Shown here piece after piece: positions 8,945 to 17,072 of a stretch of DNA of 64,000 nucleotides. Within the stretch, counting starts at the first letter, position 1. Each line of letters starts with the position of its first letter. The stretch is from NCBI GenBank assembly GCA_963736855.1, contig CAVTQK010000015.1, positions 640,001 through 704,000 of the forward strand, in the 5' to 3' direction. The notes under the pieces were generated by a model. The model did not search any database, was not told where the DNA came from, and saw nothing but the letters and a program-made list of their open reading frames with translations. The stretch is from an uncultured delta proteobacterium. Lineage in GTDB: Bacteria; Desulfobacterota; Desulfobacteria; Desulfobacterales; UBA2156. The translations under genes were made by a program, and so were the position numbers.

Positions 8945-10115
8945 TTAATAGCAATACTGCAGCATGTTTTCAGCCCAAGCCGACTCTGTTGGGAGCGGAG
9001 GGAGCGGTCTTGAAAAGAAATTTTCCCCTCGGACTCTTCTTAACATATCTATGACCGCCTGATAAAAACCTTGCTGACCATCGTGGGCAACTGTGACCCA
9101 TTCGGTATCATTTAATATCTCAACGACACCCGACTCATCACTCAACACAACACCCATTCTCCGATAGAGCGCTTCTATGGCGGGCAAGCCATACCCTTGC
9201 CGAGCCGGCATCAAGAACACATGACATTGATCATATAACTGGTTTAATATCTGGTTCGAAACAAAGCCGTGGAATCGAACCCGGTCGCTGATACCCAGGT
9301 TGCGGGCGTAGTTTTCGAGCTTTGATTTTTCCGGCCCATTTCCTACGATATTTAATCTCCAATTTTGGAATTCAGAACCACCTGAATTCCTAACCTCAGC
9401 TAACGCACCCAGAATCCAATCGATACGTTTGCTCGCCTGAAGCCGCGAAACGGACAGCAACTCAATCGGGTCATCCGGTCTGTCCGGTGCCTCATCTTAG
9501 AGGGGAACCAAAACCACCCAAATACATTACTTGGGCATCACGCCCATAGATGGCCTTCATTTCAGTCTGAAGGGCTTTTGTATTCGTAACGAACCGCTGA
9601 GCCCTCAATATTCCTCGCCTTGTTGCGAAATGCCTAATAGCCATAAATATCCTTACCCGCAATCGGGACAGCTTTGACCTACCACACGATATTTGCCCCA
9701 ATAAGCTATAAGTATCGGGTATTCTAATATGGTATGGCACATCAACCGACAATCCGGCATGGTAGGCCGATTGAATATTAAGTAGCAAGGGAGGAGGTGA
9801 CCCTTTTTTATGAAGACTATGCAGCGCCCGCCTGAGTGACAAACTTTTACTGAGAAAATTTCTCCTAGGCGTCAATTGATGAACCTGAACAGGCCACGAA
9901 GCATATTTATCGAGCCCTATATCATCGAAATAGCACAATATTGAATGAGAGCGCTCCGATTCATGTAACGCCTTAGATAAGGCCAGAATCACTCGCTCCT
10001 CCCCTCCAAATTCGATAAATTCAGGCTGAAATATTACAACATCGTCCGAGTTCGGGAACAATCTCGCAGATGCCTGTTTACTGAATAAGAACTCATGAGC
10101 AATCCTGGTGTTCAA
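8945..10115 (-). CDS. Glycosyltransferase family 4, frameshifted near 9490
   Basis: FGGEERV in the N-terminal ORF; SRLQASKRID, GNGP and QGYGLPAIEA in the C-terminal ORF. Confidence 0.8.
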
Positions 10116-10194
10116 TCAAAGCAATTTAGTAGTGGAGCAAGCATCCGGCTCGCTTGCCGTAAGAAATTTCGGTGATCAGACTACGTAGCCGTCA

Positions 10195-10867
10195 GGCGTC
10201 GCCAGACACCCATAACGGCTTCATCCTGGCTGCCACTTTGCCCTGCCTCGGAACACGATACCAATTATTTCCAATATTGCACCGCTTTCTCTCGGCCGAT
10301 ACGAAATGGCCGATTATAAAGGCGTACGCCGACAAGGCATATTTTGGAGAGCCAAAACGGCGCTTTCTTCTGCACAAAACAATTCGAAGACGGCATCATG
10401 AGAAAAGATACGACGACGGCCAAGTGACTCCCTATGAGAAAGCAAGAAACAAAAAGATTTCCAAAATCCGATACATCGTTGAAACGATACTTTGGACTGA
10501 GTCATCTTCACGATCATGCCTATCGGGCAAGGTTTACTACCATCGTTAAAAATAACCTCGACTGCTAGTGCAGACAGGTTTACCCCGTTACATTCCGAAG
10601 GACTATTAACCGGGGCAGGATTCAACATAAAACGAGGATTGAGAATTCTAAAGCTGGCGTTCATATAAATACAGCAGAGGTGTGTACAAAGAATAAAATC
10701 AAAAGAATTAAACATCGAAAATGATGAAATCGAAACGAAATAGAACCGCCATCTCTTTCGGCTTGAACGAAAAATTGGTCAAACCGGATAAAACGGCAAC
10801 AAAATTTTTCTGAAAAATCTCCTAAAAAGTTAAAATCCGAAATCTGAGTAAATTTTCAAACCTTTCA
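10195..10867 (+). mobile_element. Degenerate IS5-family element relic 2 (C-terminal transposase half plus end)
   Basis: DTHNGFILA, YADKAY, RNKKISKIRYIVE and GFNIKRGLRILK fragments with stops and frameshifts; shares its terminal ~110 bp with relic 1. Confidence 0.75.
10579..10617. repeat. About 37-bp palindromic insertion related to the GIY-YIG element termini
   Basis: TTTACCCCGTTACAT-tccgaaggac-TATTAACCGGGGCA; removing 37 nt restores the transposase frame (RQV/GFNIKRG). Confidence 0.6.
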
Positions 10868-11048
10868 GATTCCGGAGGACGTTCGAGTTTGCTTTGAGGC
10901 TGTAAATAATCGTATCGGTGTCGAGCAAAAACATCACAAACCTTTTCGGAGCTTGTGGGAAGCGCGGCGTGCATTTTTAAGTTCCGAAACGATTTGCGCT
11001 GCGGTCCGGGAATCTTCCCAAGAGCCTGCGAGAGAAAGAAGGGCTTGG
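10868..11048 (-). pseudogene. vapBC-like remnant: antitoxin C-terminus and PIN-toxin N-terminus
   Basis: QALLSLAGSWEDSRTAAQIVSELKNARR...* overlaps (TGATG) with MFLLDTDTIIYSLK, a typical PIN start; truncated at the IS end. Confidence 0.7.
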
Positions 11049-11051
11049 AAA

Positions 11052-11122
11052 GACGGGAATCCCGAGCTTGCTCCAAATCTCGTTCCGCCTGACGGAACCA
11101 GTCATGTGAACGATTCGGAATA
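11052..11122 (-). pseudogene. 5' fragment of a HEPN gene, paralogous to 13769..14158
   Basis: Close DNA match to about 14089-14160 (PNRSHDWFRQAERD); start codon lost. Confidence 0.75.
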
Positions 11123-11127
11123 TGTTT

Positions 11128-11158
11128 CTCACAGAGCCCATAGAGGGCGCAGAGGGTT
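11128..11158. repeat. Tripartite 9-mer repeat, copy 1
   Basis: CTCACAGAG CCCATAGAG GGCGCAGAG GGTT. Confidence 0.85.
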
Positions 11159-11328
11159 TTTCAGATTCGCAGGCTGCGCATTACATATTCGGCCAAATCC
11201 ACTCGTGAAACATCTGGGTTTTAGGCTATCATGTCGAGATAGAGAATCGATCAAGTAGCTTCATTATAAGACGTATAACGACGATGGATCATGTTCGGGG
11301 AAAAAGGTTTTACTTTTTGCCATTCCTT
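11128..11328. repeat. Direct repeat A, copy 1 (about 200 bp)
   Basis: Similar to 12845-13044, with scattered substitutions and one indel. Confidence 0.9.
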
Positions 11329-11696
11329 ATTTCCGAAAGTTCGTTGCTCATTTTTTGAATGGCTTCTCTTAGCCTTGGGATATGGTTCGCACAGATGTCA
11401 AAAATAATTTCATGGTCAACATGCTCGTAGTGGTGAGAAACCAGATCTCGAAACCGTGCAATCTTATCCCATTCGATCTCAGCATAACGGTTTAAAAATG
11501 GTAAATCCTTCTTCTGTATTTTCTTCACCGACTCACCGATGATTTGGAGCCTCATTGAAATTGCATCCAACAGTGTGACCCCATCCGATGTTGACACAAA
11601 ATCTCCAGATTCAGCGATCTTTGAAAATCGTTCCTGCACAAGGCTGATTGAGTCGAGCAAAACATCCAGAATCTCAACAATTTCATCTTCAGACAT
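11310..11696 (-). CDS. HepT-like DUF86 HEPN ribonuclease toxin
   Basis: LQIIGE and W..IARFRDLVSHHY (RX4HXY motif); overlaps the upstream MNT gene. Confidence 0.9.
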   Translation of the reverse strand: MSEDEIVEILDVLLDSISLVQERFSKIAESGDFVSTSDGVTLLDAISMRLQIIGESVKKIQKKDLPFLNRYAEIEWDKIARFRDLVSHHYEHVDHEIIFDICANHIPRLREAIQKMSNELSEIRNGKK

Positions 11697-11979
11697 AGTG
11701 GATATCTCTCTCAATTCGTTTTAAAAAGCGTTCGCTCAGCCCCTTCCTCTTACGAATTAGCTCGACCGGTTTCCCCAATCTGTTTTCGAGATATATATGC
11801 AGTCCGGCTAGGTAATCAAAACGAGCTTCGGTTAGTTCAACAAGCAAATCGATATCGCTATCGGGTTGGTGTGTTTCTTTCGCGTGGGAACCGAAAAGCC
11901 CGATGGCCAAGAGACCGTATTTATTCCTAAGATATTGCTTTTCTGAACGTAAAATATCCAATATTTCTTTGCTGGTCAT
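11689..11979 (-). CDS. MntA-like minimal nucleotidyltransferase antitoxin
   Basis: GLFGS...DSDIDLLVE (GSX10DXD); 96 aa. Confidence 0.9.
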   Translation of the reverse strand: MTSKEILDILRSEKQYLRNKYGLLAIGLFGSHAKETHQPDSDIDLLVELTEARFDYLAGLHIYLENRLGKPVELIRKRKGLSERFLKRIERDIHYV

Positions 11980-12002
11980 GATTTTTTTCGTAAGAGGGGC
12001 AT

Positions 12003-12033
12003 CTCACAGAGTTCGCAGAGGGCGCAGAGGGTT
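12003..12033. repeat. Tripartite 9-mer repeat, copy 2
   Basis: CTCACAGAG TTCGCAGAG GGCGCAGAG GGTT. Confidence 0.85.
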
Positions 12034-12188
12034 CAAGTGTTTGGAGAGAATCGATATCCTTATTTCTTCGACAAAGAAAGGTTTCGGAAATGCGTGTTCC
12101 ATTCTTTCAGGAGTCCTTTATTGTCGATTTTTTCCATCAGGACCCTGAAATCGATTTGATCTCCGGAGAGCTCAAGGATACCGCCGAT
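12003..12188. repeat. Direct repeat B, copy 1 (186 bp)
   Basis: Appears identical to 14165-14350 beyond the 9-mer motif. Confidence 0.9.
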
Positions 12189-12638
12189 ATCGTTTAAATG
12201 TTTTTCTGAACCGCCTTCATGATAATATTCCAGCTTGCGCAGAATAACATATTCAATGGGGGCGATCCAGATCGATTCCCCTTCAAAACGGATCTCTTTG
12301 CGCTTGTTGAGTGCCCACTGGTGAAGCTTGCTGTTGCCCATTGGGTAAATGTCGGCCTTGAAACCCGTTGTATGATGAATCAGGTTGAAGTGACCGCCTG
12401 ATGGCCTTGAAATTTCGATTTTGATGATTTCCGGTGGCGGGCAATAAAATTCTGAAAGAGGAAAGACTTCGGTAAAGCTTCCGATATTAAAGGGTTCCAG
12501 ATCGATCACAAGATCGAGGTCATGGGTTAAGCGGGGTTTACCGTATATAATGGACGCCATTGCCCCGGTGACCATGTAGCGAATTCTCAATTGGTTGAAC
12601 CGGGAGATGAATATTTTCAGAAGATCAAGTTCGGGCAT
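12060..12638 (-). CDS. Nucleotidyltransferase-fold protein, TA-like
   Basis: YMVTGAMAS..YGKPRLTHDLDLV N-terminal motif; KLEYY..GGSEKHLND. Confidence 0.7.
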   Translation of the reverse strand: MPELDLLKIFISRFNQLRIRYMVTGAMASIIYGKPRLTHDLDLVIDLEPFNIGSFTEVFPLSEFYCPPPEIIKIEISRPSGGHFNLIHHTTGFKADIYPMGNSKLHQWALNKRKEIRFEGESIWIAPIEYVILRKLEYYHEGGSEKHLNDIGGILELSGDQIDFRVLMEKIDNKGLLKEWNTHFRNLSLSKK

Positions 12639-12816
12639 AGAGGAATATTTCCTTGACCTTGTTTTGGATTTGTTCGTCCGTCCAATCGGGATGCTGCAGA
12701 CGCAACCCCGCTTCTTTCAGTTTATGTGCACAAGAATACAGATCCAGAAAAAGCCTTAGTTTTTGTTCCGGATTTAATTTTTTTAGGAAATCATTTTGAG
12801 ATGGATTTTCTGTCAT
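12625..12816 (-). CDS. Small partner protein (about 63 aa) of the downstream nucleotidyltransferase
   Basis: PEQKLR...AGLRLQHPDWTDEQI; overlaps the next gene's start. Confidence 0.65.
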   Translation of the reverse strand: MTENPSQNDFLKKLNPEQKLRLFLDLYSCAHKLKEAGLRLQHPDWTDEQIQNKVKEIFLYART

Positions 12817-12844
12817 TCCAATGGCTCTAATTTTTCTTCGGTCC

Positions 12845-12875
12845 CTCATAGAGTTCACAGAGGACGCAGAGGGTT
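12845..12875. repeat. Tripartite 9-mer repeat, copy 3
   Basis: CTCATAGAG TTCACAGAG GACGCAGAG GGTT. Confidence 0.85.
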
Positions 12876-13044
12876 TTTCAGATTCGCAGGCTGCGCATTA
12901 CACATTCGGCCAAATCCACTCGTGAAACATCTGGGCTCAGGCTATCGCGTCGGGATAGTGAATCGATCAAGTAGCTTCACTATAAGATGTAGAACGACGA
13001 TGGATTATGTTCGGAGAAAAAGGTTTTACTTTTTGCCATTCCTT
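12845..13044. repeat. Direct repeat A, copy 2
   Basis: Matches 11128-11328 and includes the last codons (RNGKK*) of the DUF86 gene. Confidence 0.9.
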
Positions 13045-13061
13045 TGATGTGTTCTCCGCGT

Positions 13062-13388
13062 TCACGACCTGTGTTTATTCGGGTTTAATCCCTTTGTTGA
13101 AAATTTAAGCAACAAAACCGACTCTCGCGCTTTTTCCACCAAGCGGACTTTTTCTGGCCAAGTGAGCGCACGGAGGTTTTTTTGCCGGAGGGCATACCGA
13201 TTCAGCAAAAACGATATTTCATTTAATACATAAAGCCCTTCTGACTCTGGCACCCCAACCAAAACATCAATATCCAAAGTTGCTACCGGTTCGGCATACC
13301 GTATCTGCGCCATTGCGCCAAATATGGCGTAATTGATGATCACCTCCTTCTTGACCATCTCATTCAGCAATTCAGCTAGTTCTTTCAC
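13062..13388 (-). pseudogene. Probable deletion fusion: nucleotidyltransferase N-terminus joined to a small partner protein
   Basis: YAIFGAMAQIRYAEPVATLDIDVLV (NTase-like start) followed after about 58 aa by unrelated RQKNLRALTWPEKVR; too short for a full NTase of this type. Confidence 0.5.
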
Positions 13389-13446
13389 ATCACCTCTCTT
13401 TAAGAAAGATAGGTATTGCGATTAAAGGTATCTTGCTGTCTATTTA

Positions 13447-13812
13447 TCACTGGTCACGCTCATAGACCCAGTTTACCTCTTCAAGCAGCATTCGGCTGAA
13501 GCGAGTGTTCGGATCCATTGCTTTCCACTCTGAAAGGGTATAGACTAGCACATCTGCAGGAACCGGCAGCTCGGAAGTGTCCCAGGCGATCCCTCGGCGC
13601 ACAAAAGGTTCATTGGACTTTTCCACAATAATAATGAGATCCAGGTCGCTTCCCACGCCCCAGTCACTTCGTGCCAAAGAGCCAAAATACCCGATACGTA
13701 CCACTTCGGGTCTCATGGCAGCGACCTCTGCCGCCCAAGTCTCAAGGCGGCGCACCACTGTATCTTGATCAGGCCATCGCATTACGGACGAAGTCAAGGA
13801 TCTCACCGGCAT
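13447..13812 (-). CDS. Minimal nucleotidyltransferase (MNT) protein
   Basis: GYFGSLARSDWGVGSDLDLII and PADVLVYT; start at MPVRSL. Confidence 0.85.
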   Translation of the reverse strand: MPVRSLTSSVMRWPDQDTVVRRLETWAAEVAAMRPEVVRIGYFGSLARSDWGVGSDLDLIIIVEKSNEPFVRRGIAWDTSELPVPADVLVYTLSEWKAMDPNTRFSRMLLEEVNWVYERDQ

Positions 13813-14158
13813 ATTGGATCGCCTCTTTACTTTGTAAAGGTCCATAATGTTCAAAGGGCGCCCCTTCCGGATGCCCGTTTGGGTATCGTGGCGGAATGTA
13901 ATAGGCATCGAGAACCCGGCCTTTCTCGATAAGATCTTCAGGGATGCGGATTGTTTTCGGCAGTTCGATCAGAAGTTTGGCGATCACGTGGCCCCACGCC
14001 TCTTGGCCCAACTTCAGATGAAGCGCTTTCACCACCTTTTCCGCTGACTGCTGAGCCGCAAAACATGCCCATTCATGCCGGCCGGAAAGACGAGAATCCC
14101 TGGCCTGGTCTAAATCCCGTTCCGCCTGACGGAACCAATCATGTGAACGATTCGGCAT
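13769..14158 (-). CDS. HEPN domain protein
   Basis: WFRQAERDL, ACFAAQQSAEK, WGH and YYIPPRYP. Confidence 0.9.
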   Translation of the reverse strand: MPNRSHDWFRQAERDLDQARDSRLSGRHEWACFAAQQSAEKVVKALHLKLGQEAWGHVIAKLLIELPKTIRIPEDLIEKGRVLDAYYIPPRYPNGHPEGAPFEHYGPLQSKEAIQYAGEILDFVRNAMA

Positions 14159-14164
14159 GTGTTC

Positions 14165-14195
14165 CTCACAGAGCGCGCAGAGGGCGCAGAGGGTT
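14165..14195. repeat. Tripartite 9-mer repeat, copy 4
   Basis: CTCACAGAG CGCGCAGAG GGCGCAGAG GGTT. Confidence 0.85.
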
Positions 14196-14350
14196 CAAGT
14201 GTTTGGAGAGAATCGATATCCTTATTTCTTCGACAAAGAAAGGTTTCGGAAATGCGTGTTCCATTCTTTCAGGAGTCCTTTATTGTCGATTTTTTCCATC
14301 AGGACCCTGAAATCGATTTGATCTCCGGAGAGCTCAAGGATACCGCCGAT
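14165..14350. repeat. Direct repeat B, copy 2, carrying an orphan 3' end of gene 12060..12638
   Basis: Matches 12003-12188. Confidence 0.9.
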
Positions 14351-14428
14351 TTTGAATAGATTCCAATACCGATGTCACTAAGACCTCGTTCCAAGTAAAT
14401 AACAAGGGACTTTTGAAATTTGATTACC

Positions 14429-14833
14429 CTAAAAAAGCTTATTGCGAACAAAGGCCAGTGTCAGATCCGCCATGCGAAGAACTTCCAGGGCAACCGGCTT
14501 GGTATAAATTTTTGCCGGAATGCTATCCGGCAATCCATTCGGATAGCGAGTTGGTATATAATAGGCGTCCAGAGGGGCAATTTTTTCTCGAAGTTCGTCA
14601 AATCCTTTATCAATTTCTGAAGCCCATCGACAAAGAGCCTCAACAGAATGGCCGACAACGAATTCTTCACCTTGCGCATAGAGAAATGCTTTGAGAGCTT
14701 TTTCGGCGATTTGTTGACCGACAAAACACGCTAAATGATAGCTGCCACCATCGAAGAGCAATTTCGCCCCTTTTCTGTCGGCTTCGGCTTGTTCTATCCA
14801 GCGGAGGCCTTCGGCCATAGCATCACGCTTCAT
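14429..14833 (-). CDS. HEPN domain protein
   Basis: WIEQAEAD, ACFVGQQIAEKALKA, GHS and YYIPTRYP. Confidence 0.9.
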   Translation of the reverse strand: MKRDAMAEGLRWIEQAEADRKGAKLLFDGGSYHLACFVGQQIAEKALKAFLYAQGEEFVVGHSVEALCRWASEIDKGFDELREKIAPLDAYYIPTRYPNGLPDSIPAKIYTKPVALEVLRMADLTLAFVRNKLF

Positions 14834-15200
14834 AGAGGATTCTCCCCGTCTTCATCGCACGTTTGAGGAAAGGGTTGTCTTTCATTTTTTTTATTTCTTC
14901 AGGGGTATATACGAGCAAGTCGACTCCGATCCTCGGTTTCAATTGCCGGTAAACCGCACCTGTTCTGTCGAGAAAATCCAGTCCGCTGTCGATAACAATA
15001 ATGAGATCCAAATCACTGGAAAGGGCGGTATTGCCGCTGGCAACGGAGCCGAAAAGAATGACTTTCCGGGCTCCCATTTTCACTGCTTCAAGGGTTAACC
15101 GCTCGGCCTCTTCATGCAGGTGTTGTATATGGGATTCTTTCCGGCTTTTTAAACGATCCCTCAACTGCTTGGTCTGGTGATAGTTCATCTGACCGGTCAT
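14823..15200 (-). CDS. Minimal nucleotidyltransferase (MNT) protein
   Basis: VILFGSVASG...SDLDLII and VDLLVYTPEE. Confidence 0.88.
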   Translation of the reverse strand: MTGQMNYHQTKQLRDRLKSRKESHIQHLHEEAERLTLEAVKMGARKVILFGSVASGNTALSSDLDLIIVIDSGLDFLDRTGAVYRQLKPRIGVDLLVYTPEEIKKMKDNPFLKRAMKTGRILYEA

Positions 15201-15338
15201 CGGCTTTTCGATTGGATTTTATGCCGGAAACACATCGATTTGGAGAAATGAGCGCGTTCGATGCGCATAGCTCCGCTTGGTTGATATCCGAATCGATAAC
15301 GGCATAATACTTTGATTTTATATGAAATATGTTAAGTA

Positions 15339-15530
15339 TGATGAAATCGTAACAAAGCTATTTTTGCTCGCTTCGTGACCATTTTCGGGAGATGCTCACG
15401 GCTTCTCTAAATTTCAAGAACTCGGCGCAAGCGCCTCAAACAGCTTGAAATTATTAACGCTCAGCCGTTCGCATCTCTTTTTCCGAAAATGCTCAAACCT
15501 CGCTTGCAAAAGCTTTTTACGAAGCCATCA
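15339..15530. mobile_element. MITE-like element, core type B
   Basis: Termini TGATGAAATCGTAA and TTTTTACGAAGCCATCA; flanks AGTA/AATA; long internal hairpin. Confidence 0.75.
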
Positions 15531-15771
15531 AATATGAATCCGAAAAATCAGCTCAATAAAAGACGGATTGCAGTACGCTTTAAAAACAGTGCCAAGCCCT
15601 TGAATCTGTTAACAGCAAATCGCATGATTTTAAATGGATAAGCCTATCATTAAAAACTAAAGTAAGAGAAAAATATCTTAAATCGATAAAATAGGCAATA
15701 AAATAATATGGTTTCCTGTTGTTCGATCGATATGGCAAAAGAGTAGAAGGAGGGTAGAAAAAGGCAAAAAA

Positions 15772-17072
15772 TTACCGACCATGCTTAGATTCGGGGGAGG
15801 CGGCAATCGCCATGATAACCGTGAACAACAGGGCGTTGGCTGGAATATGAAGATTGAAATCGGAGATGCTGTGGACCATAATGGCGACGATGCCTGCCAT
15901 GGCCCCGGCCGTGGTTCCCAACGTCAGTCCGCTATGATTGGGTAATTTTTGAAACCCGATGCGAAATAGCAAAAACAGTCCCCAGATCACAATGGGTATC
16001 CAAAAAACGCCCAACTCAGCGGTGAATTGAAGATAATCGTTGTGCGCGTTATAAAATCGAGCCCAAAAACCCGGAGGCTGATACTGGGTAAAAATCGTTG
16101 AAAAGGTCCCCGGACCGCTTCCCAGCAAGGGATAATCGAGAATCAAATTCAGAATCCCTTTCCAGGCGGTGACGCGACTTTGATAAGAGCCGATTTTTTC
16201 TTTCTGCTCGAAAGTGAGGACCCTTTCCACGGTCGTTTCGCTGGAAAGTGTGATGATACCGAACAGGAAGATGGCAGCAATACATATCAGAAGGATCTTT
16301 TTAATGCTCAGAGACTGTTTTGCGCGCATGATAAGCAGGATAAAAAAGGCGCTCCCGGATTAATGCCCCGATCCAACCGCCCCTGGAAAGTGATAAAAGC
16401 AGGGCTGTCACCAAAAAGGTCAGGAGAACAGAAAAAAGTACAAATTGGCCTCGTTTCAAGCCTGATGCAAGCATTCCCAAGAGCAGAGGAATAGCCATCT
16501 CCATATACCCGGCAAAATGGTTATAATGAAAGTAGGTGGAAGTCAGAGCATCGTTGAGGTACTCTCCATGATGTCTCGTAGGCCCACCATGAAAAGGGAT
16601 TGGCGCCGGCCCATTTGAATAGGCCGAAGACCGCCAAGAAAGTCGCAACACTTACGATCATAATAACGAGAGTGTGGATATGTTTTTTTTGATTACAGAC
16701 CTGGATGACCAGAAAATAGATTGCAATATAATTGACCAATTCCACAACGGCCCAAAAAGAAAGACCTCGATGGACGGAATTAAGACCGGAAATGAGGCTC
16801 AGAAGCAGAATTGCTGCAATGGGTTTTGTCAGAGGGGTTATAGTCCATTTTCCATCCCACCTGAAGATCTTTTCCATAAAGAAGCTTGCCAGGGCCATGA
16901 GGGTAAGGATATGCATGAGGGTGATCGCCCAAGCCGGGACGGATCCTTTAGGAAGAGGGGTGATGATGAGCAGCAGATAGATGAGAAGACGAGGCAGCAT
17001 CCCCGGACTTATTATTTTCTTGCCGTCCGGCGAGTGCGCTGCATGATTGCTTTGAATGGAATTCACGCTCAT
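15772..17072 (-). CDS. O-antigen ligase (Wzy_C) family membrane protein, split by two frameshifts
   Basis: NHFAGYME, LSLSRGGW, LLGSGPGTF and AHNDYLQ..AELG motifs across three ORFs. Confidence 0.85.

What the first reader, a model, noticed from the sequence alone, without database searches (positions are those of the whole stretch)
10868..15200. Integron-like array of toxin-antitoxin cassettes punctuated by a non-attC 27-bp tripartite repeat
Seen: four intact co-oriented two-gene modules (MNT-HEPN, HEPN-MNT, small protein + NTase, MNT-DUF86) and three remnants are packed into 4.3 kb inside a polysaccharide locus. A repeat of three 9-mers, consensus NNC(A/G)CAGAG followed by GGTT, occurs at 11128, 12003, 12845 and 14165. 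Each copy has the same orientation and sits about 5-30 bp before the first start codon of a module. It is not palindromic like attC, has no CRISPR-like spacing, and no integrase is in the window. Inference: a cassette acquisition or shuffling system with its own recombination site and a trans-acting enzyme.
Basis: partly seen in the sequence, partly recalled or inferred. Interest (0 to 1): 0.88.

Follow-up and report, generated by a model that had tools for sequence, protein, structure and literature searches.

The report
Toxin-antitoxin island punctuated by relic repeat arms
The repeated 27-base motif between these toxin-antitoxin genes is real, but it looks like the leftover arm of a widespread selfish repeat that normally accompanies a small nuclease gene, and it has served here as a recombination seam rather than as the site of a new integron-like system.

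Summary
Four co-oriented copies of (NNCRCAGAG)x3+GGTT lie 6-28 nt before TA gene starts, on the minus strand. They occur nowhere else in this genome.

The reading as a dedicated cassette system is only partly supported.
- The motif belongs to a cross-phylum family of tandem CACAGAG-word arrays: 50 of 201 genomes of the order, and 35 loci across many phyla, mostly beside housekeeping genes.
- This scan has noted the family before on other DNA.
- The arrays co-occur with GxxExxY (PDDEXK_3) nuclease genes.
- At the syntenic site of a congeneric genome, G201, a split GxxExxY pseudogene sits 33 bp before the same array. In the window about 470 bp holding that gene are missing.
- This genome has no GxxExxY gene.
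- Homologues of one cassette never carry the array (0 of 14), and nothing folds like attC.

One part does hold. Homology blocks end exactly at the array edges, flanks are reassorted, and metagenome contigs show other combinations joined inside the array.

Best reading: solo relic arms acting as short-homology recombination seams in an otherwise ordinary TA island.

The parts
14823..15200 (-). MNT nucleotidyltransferase, module 1
   Evidence: Pfam Polbeta/NTP_transf_2, E 8e-8
14429..14833 (-). HEPN protein, module 1
   Evidence: Pfam HEPN, E 1e-24
14196..14361 (-). Remnant of the 3' end of the 192-aa NTase-like gene (a copy of 12034-12199)
   Evidence: Repeat D1, 96% over 197 nt; 100% over 155 nt; 45-aa match at 96% identity
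14165..14195 (-). Array D: CTCACAGAG CGCGCAGAG GGCGCAGAG GGTT on +, read as CTCTGYG words on the gene strand
13769..14158 (-). HEPN protein, module 2
   Evidence: Pfam HEPN, E 1e-30
13447..13908 (-). MNT nucleotidyltransferase, module 2 (the ORF as listed; the true start is probably near 13782)
   Evidence: Pfam NTP_transf_2, E 6e-8, residues 61-128
13062..13388 (-). Remnant of a 169-aa gene with an internal deletion of about 327 bp; intact in G201
   Evidence: blastn against G201: 13214-13425 at 88% and 12918-13227 at 71%, with 327 bp of G201 missing between them; G201 ORF 10631-11140
12876..13047 (-). X element, copy C: the flanks of a lost GxxExxY gene
   Evidence: 92-93% identical to 11159-11330; collinear with G201 up to TTCACGAGT and again from AATCTGAA, with about 470 bp including the GxxExxY pseudogene absent
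12845..12875 (-). Array C
12625..12858 (-). Rv0078B-like small antitoxin, module 3
   Evidence: Pfam Rv0078B, E 1.7e-8
12060..12638 (-). 192-aa NTase-like protein (NT192), module 3
   Evidence: No Pfam or NCBIfam family at 0.01; weak AbiEii N-terminus, E 0.013; homologues in 27 of 401 genomes of the order
12003..12033 (-). Array B, 27 nt after the NT192 stop and 23 nt before the MNT start
11689..11979 (-). MNT nucleotidyltransferase, module 4
   Evidence: Pfam NTP_transf_2, E 2e-10
11310..11714 (-). HepT (DUF86) RNase, module 4
   Evidence: Pfam HepT-like, E 9e-20
11159..11330 (-). X element, copy A: the flanks of a lost GxxExxY gene
11128..11158 (-). Array A
11047..11127 (-). 5' remnant of a HEPN gene (about 27 codons, start ATG changed to ATA)
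   Evidence: Repeat D2: 11047-11158 is 88% identical to 14084-14195; sequence
10172..10549 (+). DDE transposase remnant at the edge of the island
   Evidence: Pfam DDE_Tnp_1, E 2e-4, below cut-off; matches the region next to the IS5-like gene in G201

Best explanation
The 4.3-kb stretch is an ordinary accretion island of HEPN/MNT-type toxin-antitoxin pairs lodged in a polysaccharide locus. The 27-31-bp tripartite repeat is not a new recombination site. It is a solo 3' arm of a widespread family of repeats built from tandem CACAGAG words with a 9-bp period. Full members of that family are palindromes (head, array, loop, inverted array, tail), or they bracket a small GxxExxY (PDDEXK_3, PD-(D/E)xK) nuclease gene. 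One such gene-bearing element sat at this locus in the common ancestor of this genome and congener G201. G201 keeps the gene as a split pseudogene 33 bp upstream of the array, while here about 470 bp holding it are gone and only its flanks (element X) plus the array remain, now in two copies (A and C). Arrays B and D, which follow the 192-aa gene, have no gene relic. The four arrays, the only sequence shared by otherwise unrelated neighbours, have served as short-homology substrates for duplication, deletion and exchange, which produced the mosaic. What is shown: the identity of the repeat family, its link to GxxExxY, the syntenic pseudogene, the breakpoints at array edges, and the alternative junctions in nature. 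What is inferred: that exchange runs through host homologous or microhomology recombination rather than a dedicated enzyme, and that the arrays have no present function for the TA genes.
For: Family: (CRCAGAGNN)x3 occurs in 50 of 201 genomes of the order, against 0 for the reversed control pattern. One genome, G126, has 130 copies, and six of them align as a roughly 110-bp palindrome. The window's subtype (CCCTCTGYG..CTCTRYG..CTCTRTGAG) was found at 35 loci in Spirochaetota, Gemmatimonadota, Planctomycetota, Verrucomicrobiota, Bacillota and others, 34 with one array and 1 with an inverted pair. Link to GxxExxY: 43 of 49 array-positive genomes carry the gene against 80 of 151 array-negative ones (my tally; Fisher p 7.6e-6; the genomes are related, so the p-value overstates). 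Of 30 GxxExxY loci, 14 have arrays of at least two words within 400 bp, and 5 are bracketed CACAGAG-gene-CTCTGTG. Within the window's own family, arrays occur in G000, G201, G205 and G207 and the gene in G201, G205 and G207; the other 8 of 12 genomes have neither. Syntenic relic: G201 has TIGR04256 matches of 93 bits (profile 2-91) and 32 bits (profile 84-116) between the X homology and the array, and the window is collinear on both sides of that gene. G000 has 0 GxxExxY hits. Seams: repeat blocks D1 and D4 start at the first base of the array and D2 ends at its last base, and the five-way alignment shows only the roughly 31-bp core shared by all copies. X2 contigs join 14178 to 12859 (5 nt fit both sides) and 11141 to 12017 (17 nt fit both sides), both inside arrays.
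Against: Only 3 of the 10 joints listed lie in arrays. The rest lie at the edge of the HEPN paralogue homology (11046-11048 to 13968-14078) or elsewhere. The contigs are short, of low depth (about 4-5x), and were laid at 90% likeness. The X20 joint (14164 to 12003) may be an assembler's path through the near-exact 186-bp repeat. The direction of the G201/window difference is inferred, since gene loss here and gene gain in G201 fit equally well. The 41-aa ORF across X gives no GxxExxY match. Arrays B and D have no gene relic, so their origin is unexplained. No partner arm exists anywhere in 10500-15500. In the cross-phylum sample about 8 of 35 arrays also sit 11-35 bp before a same-strand gene start, so a role in expression is not excluded.
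Confidence: 0.6

Rival explanations
1. One reading: the array is the recombination site of a dedicated cassette acquisition and shuffling system, analogous to an integron but with a different site and a trans-acting enzyme encoded elsewhere.
For: The arrays are co-oriented and sit at every module boundary. Flanks reassort exactly at the array. Natural variants have joints inside the array. The inserted-cassette pattern fits: NT192-array-[MNT-HepT-X-array]-HEPN compared with NT192-array-HEPN.
Against: The same array subtype is single-copy per locus at 34 of 35 loci in other genomes, mostly beside housekeeping genes. Arrays accompany 0 of 14 NT192 homologue loci. The orthologous HEPN-MNT pair of G201 lacks an upstream array. 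The only associated enzyme family is absent from this genome. In the genus, arrays were found only at this one locus, in 2 of 6 genomes.
Confidence: 0.08
2. The array is a cis-regulatory element, either an operator for a 9-bp-periodic DNA binder or a 5'-UTR/ribosome-binding context, shared by the TA operons.
For: The arrays lie 6-28 nt upstream of starts. The last word runs into GAGGA, which is 6 nt before the HEPN ATG in copy D. About 8 of 35 cross-phylum arrays lie 11-35 bp before same-strand starts, including pta in two Treponema genomes.
Against: No sigma-70-like promoter overlaps an array. In the order sample the CTCTGTG end faces the stop of a convergent ORF of at least 200 aa in 8 loci, but a same-strand start in only 3. 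About 9 of 35 cross-phylum arrays likewise abut convergent gene ends. One copy (A) precedes a dead gene. Cassette homologues do without the array.
Confidence: 0.12
3. The arrays are mere passengers: the pattern arose from ordinary segmental duplications whose ends happen to include the array, and the array played no part in recombination.
For: Larger blocks are duplicated along with the array: 197 nt at 96%, 112 nt at 88% and about 200 nt at 92%. The HEPN paralogues offer 80 bp of extra homology next to arrays A and D. Several read joints lie outside arrays.
Against: Three independent homology blocks each terminate exactly at an array edge, on opposite sides. Copies B and C share nothing but the array with A and D on one side. 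Two X2 joints fall within the array itself.
Confidence: 0.15

Closest known systems
Integron gene cassettes with attC sites and the IntI integrase
   Same: Small, co-oriented, tightly packed modules, often toxin-antitoxin pairs, separated by a recurring short site. Flanks on either side of the site assort independently. The genome does encode integron integrases elsewhere.
   Different: attC is an imperfect palindrome of about 55-140 bp that folds as single-stranded DNA and travels with its cassette (from established knowledge). Here the site is a non-palindromic run of three 9-mers, and the DNA around it folds no better than shuffles (z from -1.25 to +1.55). No local inverted repeats flank it. 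It does not accompany cassette homologues (0 of 14). The GGTT tail followed by TTTC or CAAG does not fit GTTRRRY.
REP/REPIN repeats and their RAYT transposases
   Same: Short intergenic repeats, mostly gene-less, that co-occur with a small enzyme gene flanked by the same repeats. They are patchily distributed, with copy number from a few to over a hundred per genome.
   Different: The associated enzyme is a PD-(D/E)xK GxxExxY/PDDEXK_3 protein, listed with function 'Unknown' in PMC3424549 (passage read), not an HUH Y1 transposase. The arms are tandem 7-mer words at a 9-bp period rather than a single REP hairpin. The comparison with REPIN/RAYT comes from earlier notes of this scan and from recall, not from a test here.
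CACAGAG-word palindromic repeats noted earlier in this scan (44 notes in at least 39 genomes)
   Same: The same word, the same tandem build, the same link to GxxExxY genes, and the same cross-phylum spread.
   Different: Here the arrays are solo arms without an inverted partner, in four co-oriented copies within 3 kb, in a genome that lacks the nuclease. They mark the recombination seams of a TA island. A syntenic congener catches the nuclease gene mid-decay.
HEPN-MNT (HepT-MntA) toxin-antitoxin pairs
   Same: Three of the four modules are HEPN or HepT paired with a minimal nucleotidyltransferase, with overlapping genes.
   Different: Nothing unusual was seen in the modules themselves. Gene order differs between modules (MNT first in two, HEPN first in one).

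Membership tests
Integron / attC cassette array | The site is an imperfect palindrome that folds into a hairpin as a single strand | tested here: not met
   DNA folds of the four sites with flanks gave z -0.47, +0.44, +1.55 and -1.25 against 200 shuffles. No local inverted repeat spans any site.
Integron / attC cassette array | The site travels with its cassette (each cassette carries its own attC) | tested here: not met
   0 of 14 loci with homologues of the 192-aa protein (52-67% identity) have any array of at least two words within about 1.5 kb.
Integron / attC cassette array | An integron integrase with attI lies next to the array | tested here: not met
   No TIGR02249 match above cut-off in the window. 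Four such loci lie on other contigs (C21, C24, C22, C13), and the nearest weak hits, at C15:707877-708386, are outside the window.
Integron / attC cassette array | Scores with an attC covariance model (IntegronFinder) | not testable with these tools
   Rfam holds no attC family: searching the genome's own integron regions returned only group II intron hits. My ad hoc attC scans found nothing even beside the integrases, so they are uninformative.
CACAGAG-word array / GxxExxY element (a family known only from this scan's notes) | Tandem CRCAGAG words at an 8-10 bp period | tested here: met
   Three words at a 9-bp period in all four copies. The same build occurs in 50 of 201 genomes of the order.
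CACAGAG-word array / GxxExxY element (a family known only from this scan's notes) | Association with a GxxExxY (TIGR04256 / PF13366) gene | tested here: met
   A pseudogene lies 33 bp upstream of the orthologous array in G201. The two co-occur across the family and the order. This genome itself has no such gene.
CACAGAG-word array / GxxExxY element (a family known only from this scan's notes) | A second, inverted arm (palindromic element or bracketed gene) | tested here: not met
   No CTCTRYG word occurs on the + strand anywhere in 10500-15500. G201 has a single array in 18 kb.
HEPN-MNT / HepT-MntA toxin-antitoxin | Adjacent, co-oriented HEPN (or HepT) and minimal nucleotidyltransferase genes | tested here: met
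   Pfam HEPN, HepT-like, NTP_transf_2 and Polbeta matches above cut-off in three gene pairs.

The most novel reading that the evidence does not exclude
CACAGAG arrays are the recognition or cleavage sites of GxxExxY nucleases. Breaks at solo arms would then drive gene conversion and reshuffling of whatever lies next to them, so that these elements act as portable, nuclease-driven seams that assemble and rearrange toxin-antitoxin and defence islands. That would be a cassette-shuffling mechanism unrelated to integron recombinases. This locus would be a fossil of such activity, frozen when the nuclease gene was lost.
Probability: 0.1. Interest if true: 0.8.

Novelty: new variant of a known kind. 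Interest (0 to 1): 0.4.

Why it matters
As a candidate integron-like system, the finding does not hold up, and the TA modules themselves are ordinary. It does add to a repeat family that I could not find described in print: searches for GxxExxY, PDDEXK_3/PF13366/TIGR04256, and CACAGAG with related terms returned nothing on it. First, a syntenic pair of genomes shows a gene-bearing element and its gene-less derivative at the same site, which ties solo arrays to GxxExxY elements by descent rather than by co-occurrence alone. Second, the arrays can act as recombination seams between unrelated genes. If the nuclease proves to act on the arrays, this would give an uncharacterised and very widespread PD-(D/E)xK family a substrate and a role in genome plasticity.

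Tried and rejected
attC detection: two ad hoc scans (terminal AAC/GTT boxes plus a hairpin energy threshold) and a self-blast for repeated sites beside the integrases found nothing convincing, even next to the genome's own integron integrases. They say nothing about the window. Rfam has no attC model and gave no hit in 9500-16500.

GxxExxY C-terminus in X: by eye, FTS|GFGRICNAQ resembles G201's NGITRIIN, but the 41-aa ORF gave no NCBIfam match at E up to 10. I dropped the claim that C-terminal codons survive.

Empty-site test: L113, another array locus, was too diverged from this genome to give an empty-site comparison (a single 69% match).

The weak array at C21:106456 (2 mismatches) looks like chance sequence in GC-rich DNA.

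Reads: run X1 has no cover over 11206-12009, and X1 and X3 have patchy cover. Absence of cover proves nothing, so I did not use it. All runs were contigs, so circular intermediates, transcript ends and rare variants could not be examined.

Considered and rejected:
- CRISPR: no spacer-like regular spacing, and a 9-bp unit.
- tRNA or other RNA gene: no Rfam hit.
- Sigma-70 promoter: none at the arrays.


Full report
WHAT IS THERE. All genes between 10868 and 15200 lie on the minus strand. Read on that strand, the island runs as follows:
- MNT-HEPN (15200-14429)
- a 166-nt remnant of the 3' end of a 192-aa gene (14361-14196)
- array D (14195-14165)
- HEPN-MNT (14158-13447)
- a 169-aa gene with an internal deletion (13388-13062)
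- element X (13047-12876)
- array C (12875-12845)
- an Rv0078B-like small gene plus the 192-aa NTase-like gene, 'NT192' (12858-12060)
- array B (12033-12003)
- MNT-HepT (11979-11310)
- element X (11330-11159)
- array A (11158-11128)
- a 27-codon HEPN 5' remnant whose ATG has become ATA (11127-11047).

Pfam supports the domain calls. NT192 has only a weak AbiEii-type NTase N-terminus (E 0.013). On both sides lie polysaccharide genes: GT4, polysaccharide deacetylase, Wzy_C, Wzz/GNVR and Poly_export. A DDE transposase remnant (10172-10549) and a 200-bp hairpin repeat (15339-15537) sit at the edges.

THE MOTIF IS REAL AND LOCAL. The pattern gave 4 matches with up to 3 mismatches, and 0 of 100 shuffles reached that. 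In the 3.9-Mb genome the only other hits at up to 3 substitutions are two weak ones on C21. All 5 exact two-unit hits are in this locus. The distances to the next start codon are 6, about 28, 23 and 6 nt.

IT IS NOT attC. No local inverted repeat spans a site. The four sites with their flanks fold no better than shuffles as single-stranded DNA (z -0.47, +0.44, +1.55, -1.25). Rfam finds nothing in the region and holds no attC model. My own attC scans failed even beside the genome's integrases and are uninformative. The genome does have four integron-type integrases above the TIGR02249 cut-off, all on other contigs.

IT BELONGS TO A WIDESPREAD REPEAT FAMILY. (CRCAGAGNN)x3 occurs in 50 of 201 genomes sampled from the order (G000 included), and the reversed control pattern in none. 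Most genomes have 1-12 copies, and G126 has 130. Six G126 copies align as a roughly 110-bp palindrome of head, three words, a 25-nt loop, three inverted words and tail. A scan of one genome per species for the window's own subtype (CCCTCTGYG..CTCTRYG..CTCTRTGAG) gave 35 loci. By their record titles these came from Treponema, Longimicrobium, Planctomycetales, Opitutia, Lentisphaerales, Kiritimatiellia, Leptospiraceae, Saprospiraceae, Synergistaceae, Ruminococcus, Desulfobacterales and Geobacter. Thirty-four loci hold one array and one holds an inverted pair. This scan had already noted CACAGAG-word repeats 44 times in at least 39 genomes and linked them to GxxExxY nucleases. I treated those notes as leads and tested them.

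CONTEXT IS NOT SPECIFIC TO TOXIN-ANTITOXIN GENES.
- I scanned 100 ORFs lying within 700 bp of the 35 arrays. The neighbours include pgk/tpi, chorismate synthase, topoisomerase I, gyrA, leuS, miaB, a Mur ligase, prfA, ybeY, argH, pta, pgm and transketolase.
- TA-like neighbours occur at 3 of 35 loci (PemK, PIN, DUF433), restriction-modification genes at 3, PDDEXK_3 at 2 and 23S_rRNA_IVP at 1.
- In 20 loci from the order, the CTCTGTG end faces the stop of a convergent ORF of at least 200 aa within 13-67 bp in 8 loci. It faces a same-strand start within 10-34 bp in 3.
- Homologues of NT192 occur in 27 of 401 genomes of the order. Of the 14 best loci (52-67% identity), none has an array within about 1.5 kb.
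So the array is not part of that cassette.

LINK TO GxxExxY.
- TIGR04256 matches 123 of 201 genomes of the order.
- By my tally, 43 of 49 array-positive genomes have the gene against 80 of 151 array-negative ones (Fisher p 7.6e-6). The genomes are related, so this overstates the case.
- Of 30 GxxExxY loci, 14 have an array of at least two words within 400 bp. Ten have CACAGAG upstream, 7 have CTCTGTG downstream, and 5 have both.
- In the window's own taxonomic family (12 genomes), arrays occur in G000, G201, G205 and G207, and the gene in G201, G205 and G207. The other eight have neither.
- G000 has no match.

THE SYNTENIC CONGENER. G201 shares the flanking O-antigen ligase region (69% over 3.2 kb) and parts of the island. 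Its order is: ligase, MarR_EPS regulator, HEPN-MNT, a 92-aa plus a DUF6036 NTase pair, the intact 169-aa gene, a zinc-finger-like remnant, a GxxExxY gene split in two, 33 bp, the array CCCTCTGTG CCCTCTGCG AACTCTGTG AG, a short truncated ORF, and an IS5-like transposase. The two GxxExxY pieces score 93 bits over profile positions 2-91 and 32 bits over positions 84-116. It is the only array in 18 kb and in that genome. Both copies of element X in the window align with G201 up to ...ATG(T/G)TTCACGAGT, at the start of the nuclease gene, and again from AATCTGAA just before the array. About 470 bp of G201, including the whole pseudogene, have no counterpart. The simplest account is that one GxxExxY element with its 3' array sat here in the common ancestor, that the gene decayed in G201, and that it was deleted here. 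Gene gain in G201 cannot be excluded.

THE ARRAYS ARE SEAMS. Block D1 (12003-12199 = 14165-14361; 96% over 197 nt, 100% over 155 nt) and block D4 (11128-11218 = 12845-12935; 93%) begin at the first base of the array. Block D2 (11047-11158 = 14084-14195; 88%) ends at its last base. This gives the following mosaic:

| Copy | Gene-side flank | Far-side flank |
|---|---|---|
| A | HEPN | X |
| B | MNT | NT192 |
| C | Rv0078B-like | X |
| D | HEPN | NT192 |

Only a roughly 31-bp core is common to all four copies and to G201.

Public-run contigs add variants:
- In X2, one contig joins 14048-14178 to 12859-13005 (the D-type HEPN side with the X side; 5 nt fit both sides).
- Also in X2, another contig joins about 11092-11141 to 12017 onward (the A-type side with the NT192 side; 17 nt fit both sides).
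- In X20, a contig runs from 14037-14164 into 12003-12217. This may be a path through the near-exact repeat.
- The other 7 of the 10 listed joints are not in arrays. Four sit at the edge of the HEPN paralogue homology (11046-11048 to 13968-14078).
- The exact stretches shared by different arrays are at most 17 nt, which should be too short to mislead a k-mer assembler. That rests on my recollection that these contigs are built with words of about 31 letters.
- The contigs are short and of low depth.

HOW IT MOST LIKELY WORKS. I read the arrays as inert relics in this genome, which has no nuclease gene, no partner arm and no promoter match at the arrays. As the only sequence shared between unrelated neighbours, together with the 80-bp HEPN paralogy beside A and D, they channel duplication, deletion and exchange by the host's own recombination. 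That accounts for the integron-like look without a dedicated system. What the family does where it is intact remains open. The palindromic build and the bracketed nuclease suggest a selfish element comparable in logic to REPIN/RAYT, a comparison taken from earlier notes and from recall rather than tested here. PDDEXK_3 is listed with function 'Unknown' in the superfamily survey PMC3424549 (passage read). Searches for GxxExxY (3 papers, passing mentions by the listing), for PDDEXK_3/PF13366/TIGR04256/TIGR02436 (2 papers), and for CACAGAG with related terms found no description of these arrays. The library is limited to open-access papers and preprints.

VERDICT. Its added value is the syntenic gene-bearing and gene-less pair, and the seam behaviour.

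Noticed in passing
window 15339-15537: A roughly 200-bp hairpin-forming (DNA fold -40 kcal/mol) MITE-like repeat sits immediately beside the island. It has more than 50 copies at 74-98% identity across the contigs of this genome and many copies in relatives of the same family. Depth spikes 10-20-fold here in all four laid runs.
   Followed up: partly
G000 contigs C21:744805-745752, C24:200981-201931, C22:4704-5633, C13:157249-157968: Four integron-type integrase loci score above the TIGR02249 cut-off (338-441 bits), and there are several fragments. Three lie near contig ends. A group II intron sits upstream of the C22 copy (Rfam hits in L069).
   Followed up: partly
window 15772-17072 (-): The Wzy_C O-antigen ligase next to the island is split into three overlapping ORFs (185, 116 and 183 aa), whereas G201 has one 429-aa gene. 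It is probably frameshifted here.
   Followed up: no
window 8945-10115 (-): A GT4 glycosyltransferase appears split into two ORFs: 171 aa with the Glycos_transf_1 C-domain and 207 aa with the Glyco_transf_4 N-domain. It lies just left of the DDE transposase remnant.
   Followed up: no
window 13214-13227; L037 10631-11318: The 108-aa ORF is a fusion made by a deletion of about 327 bp. That deletion joins the 5' part of a 169-aa gene of no known family to the next small ORF. Contigs of run X1 have loose ends at 13222 and 13227, as expected if that population keeps the undeleted form.
   Followed up: partly
L100/L119 and L115/L133 (Treponema genomes): Arrays of the same subtype sit at what look like orthologous positions in different Treponema genomes: between an FGGY kinase and an HAD hydrolase, and 33-35 bp upstream of pta. 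This suggests long persistence or a local function.
   Followed up: no
L010 (G187:C39:59892-62916): Three tandem units of about 180-260 bp each contain a CGCAGAG x3 array facing an inverted CGCAGAG x4-5 array about 25 bp away. This is a tandemly amplified palindromic form of the family.
   Followed up: no
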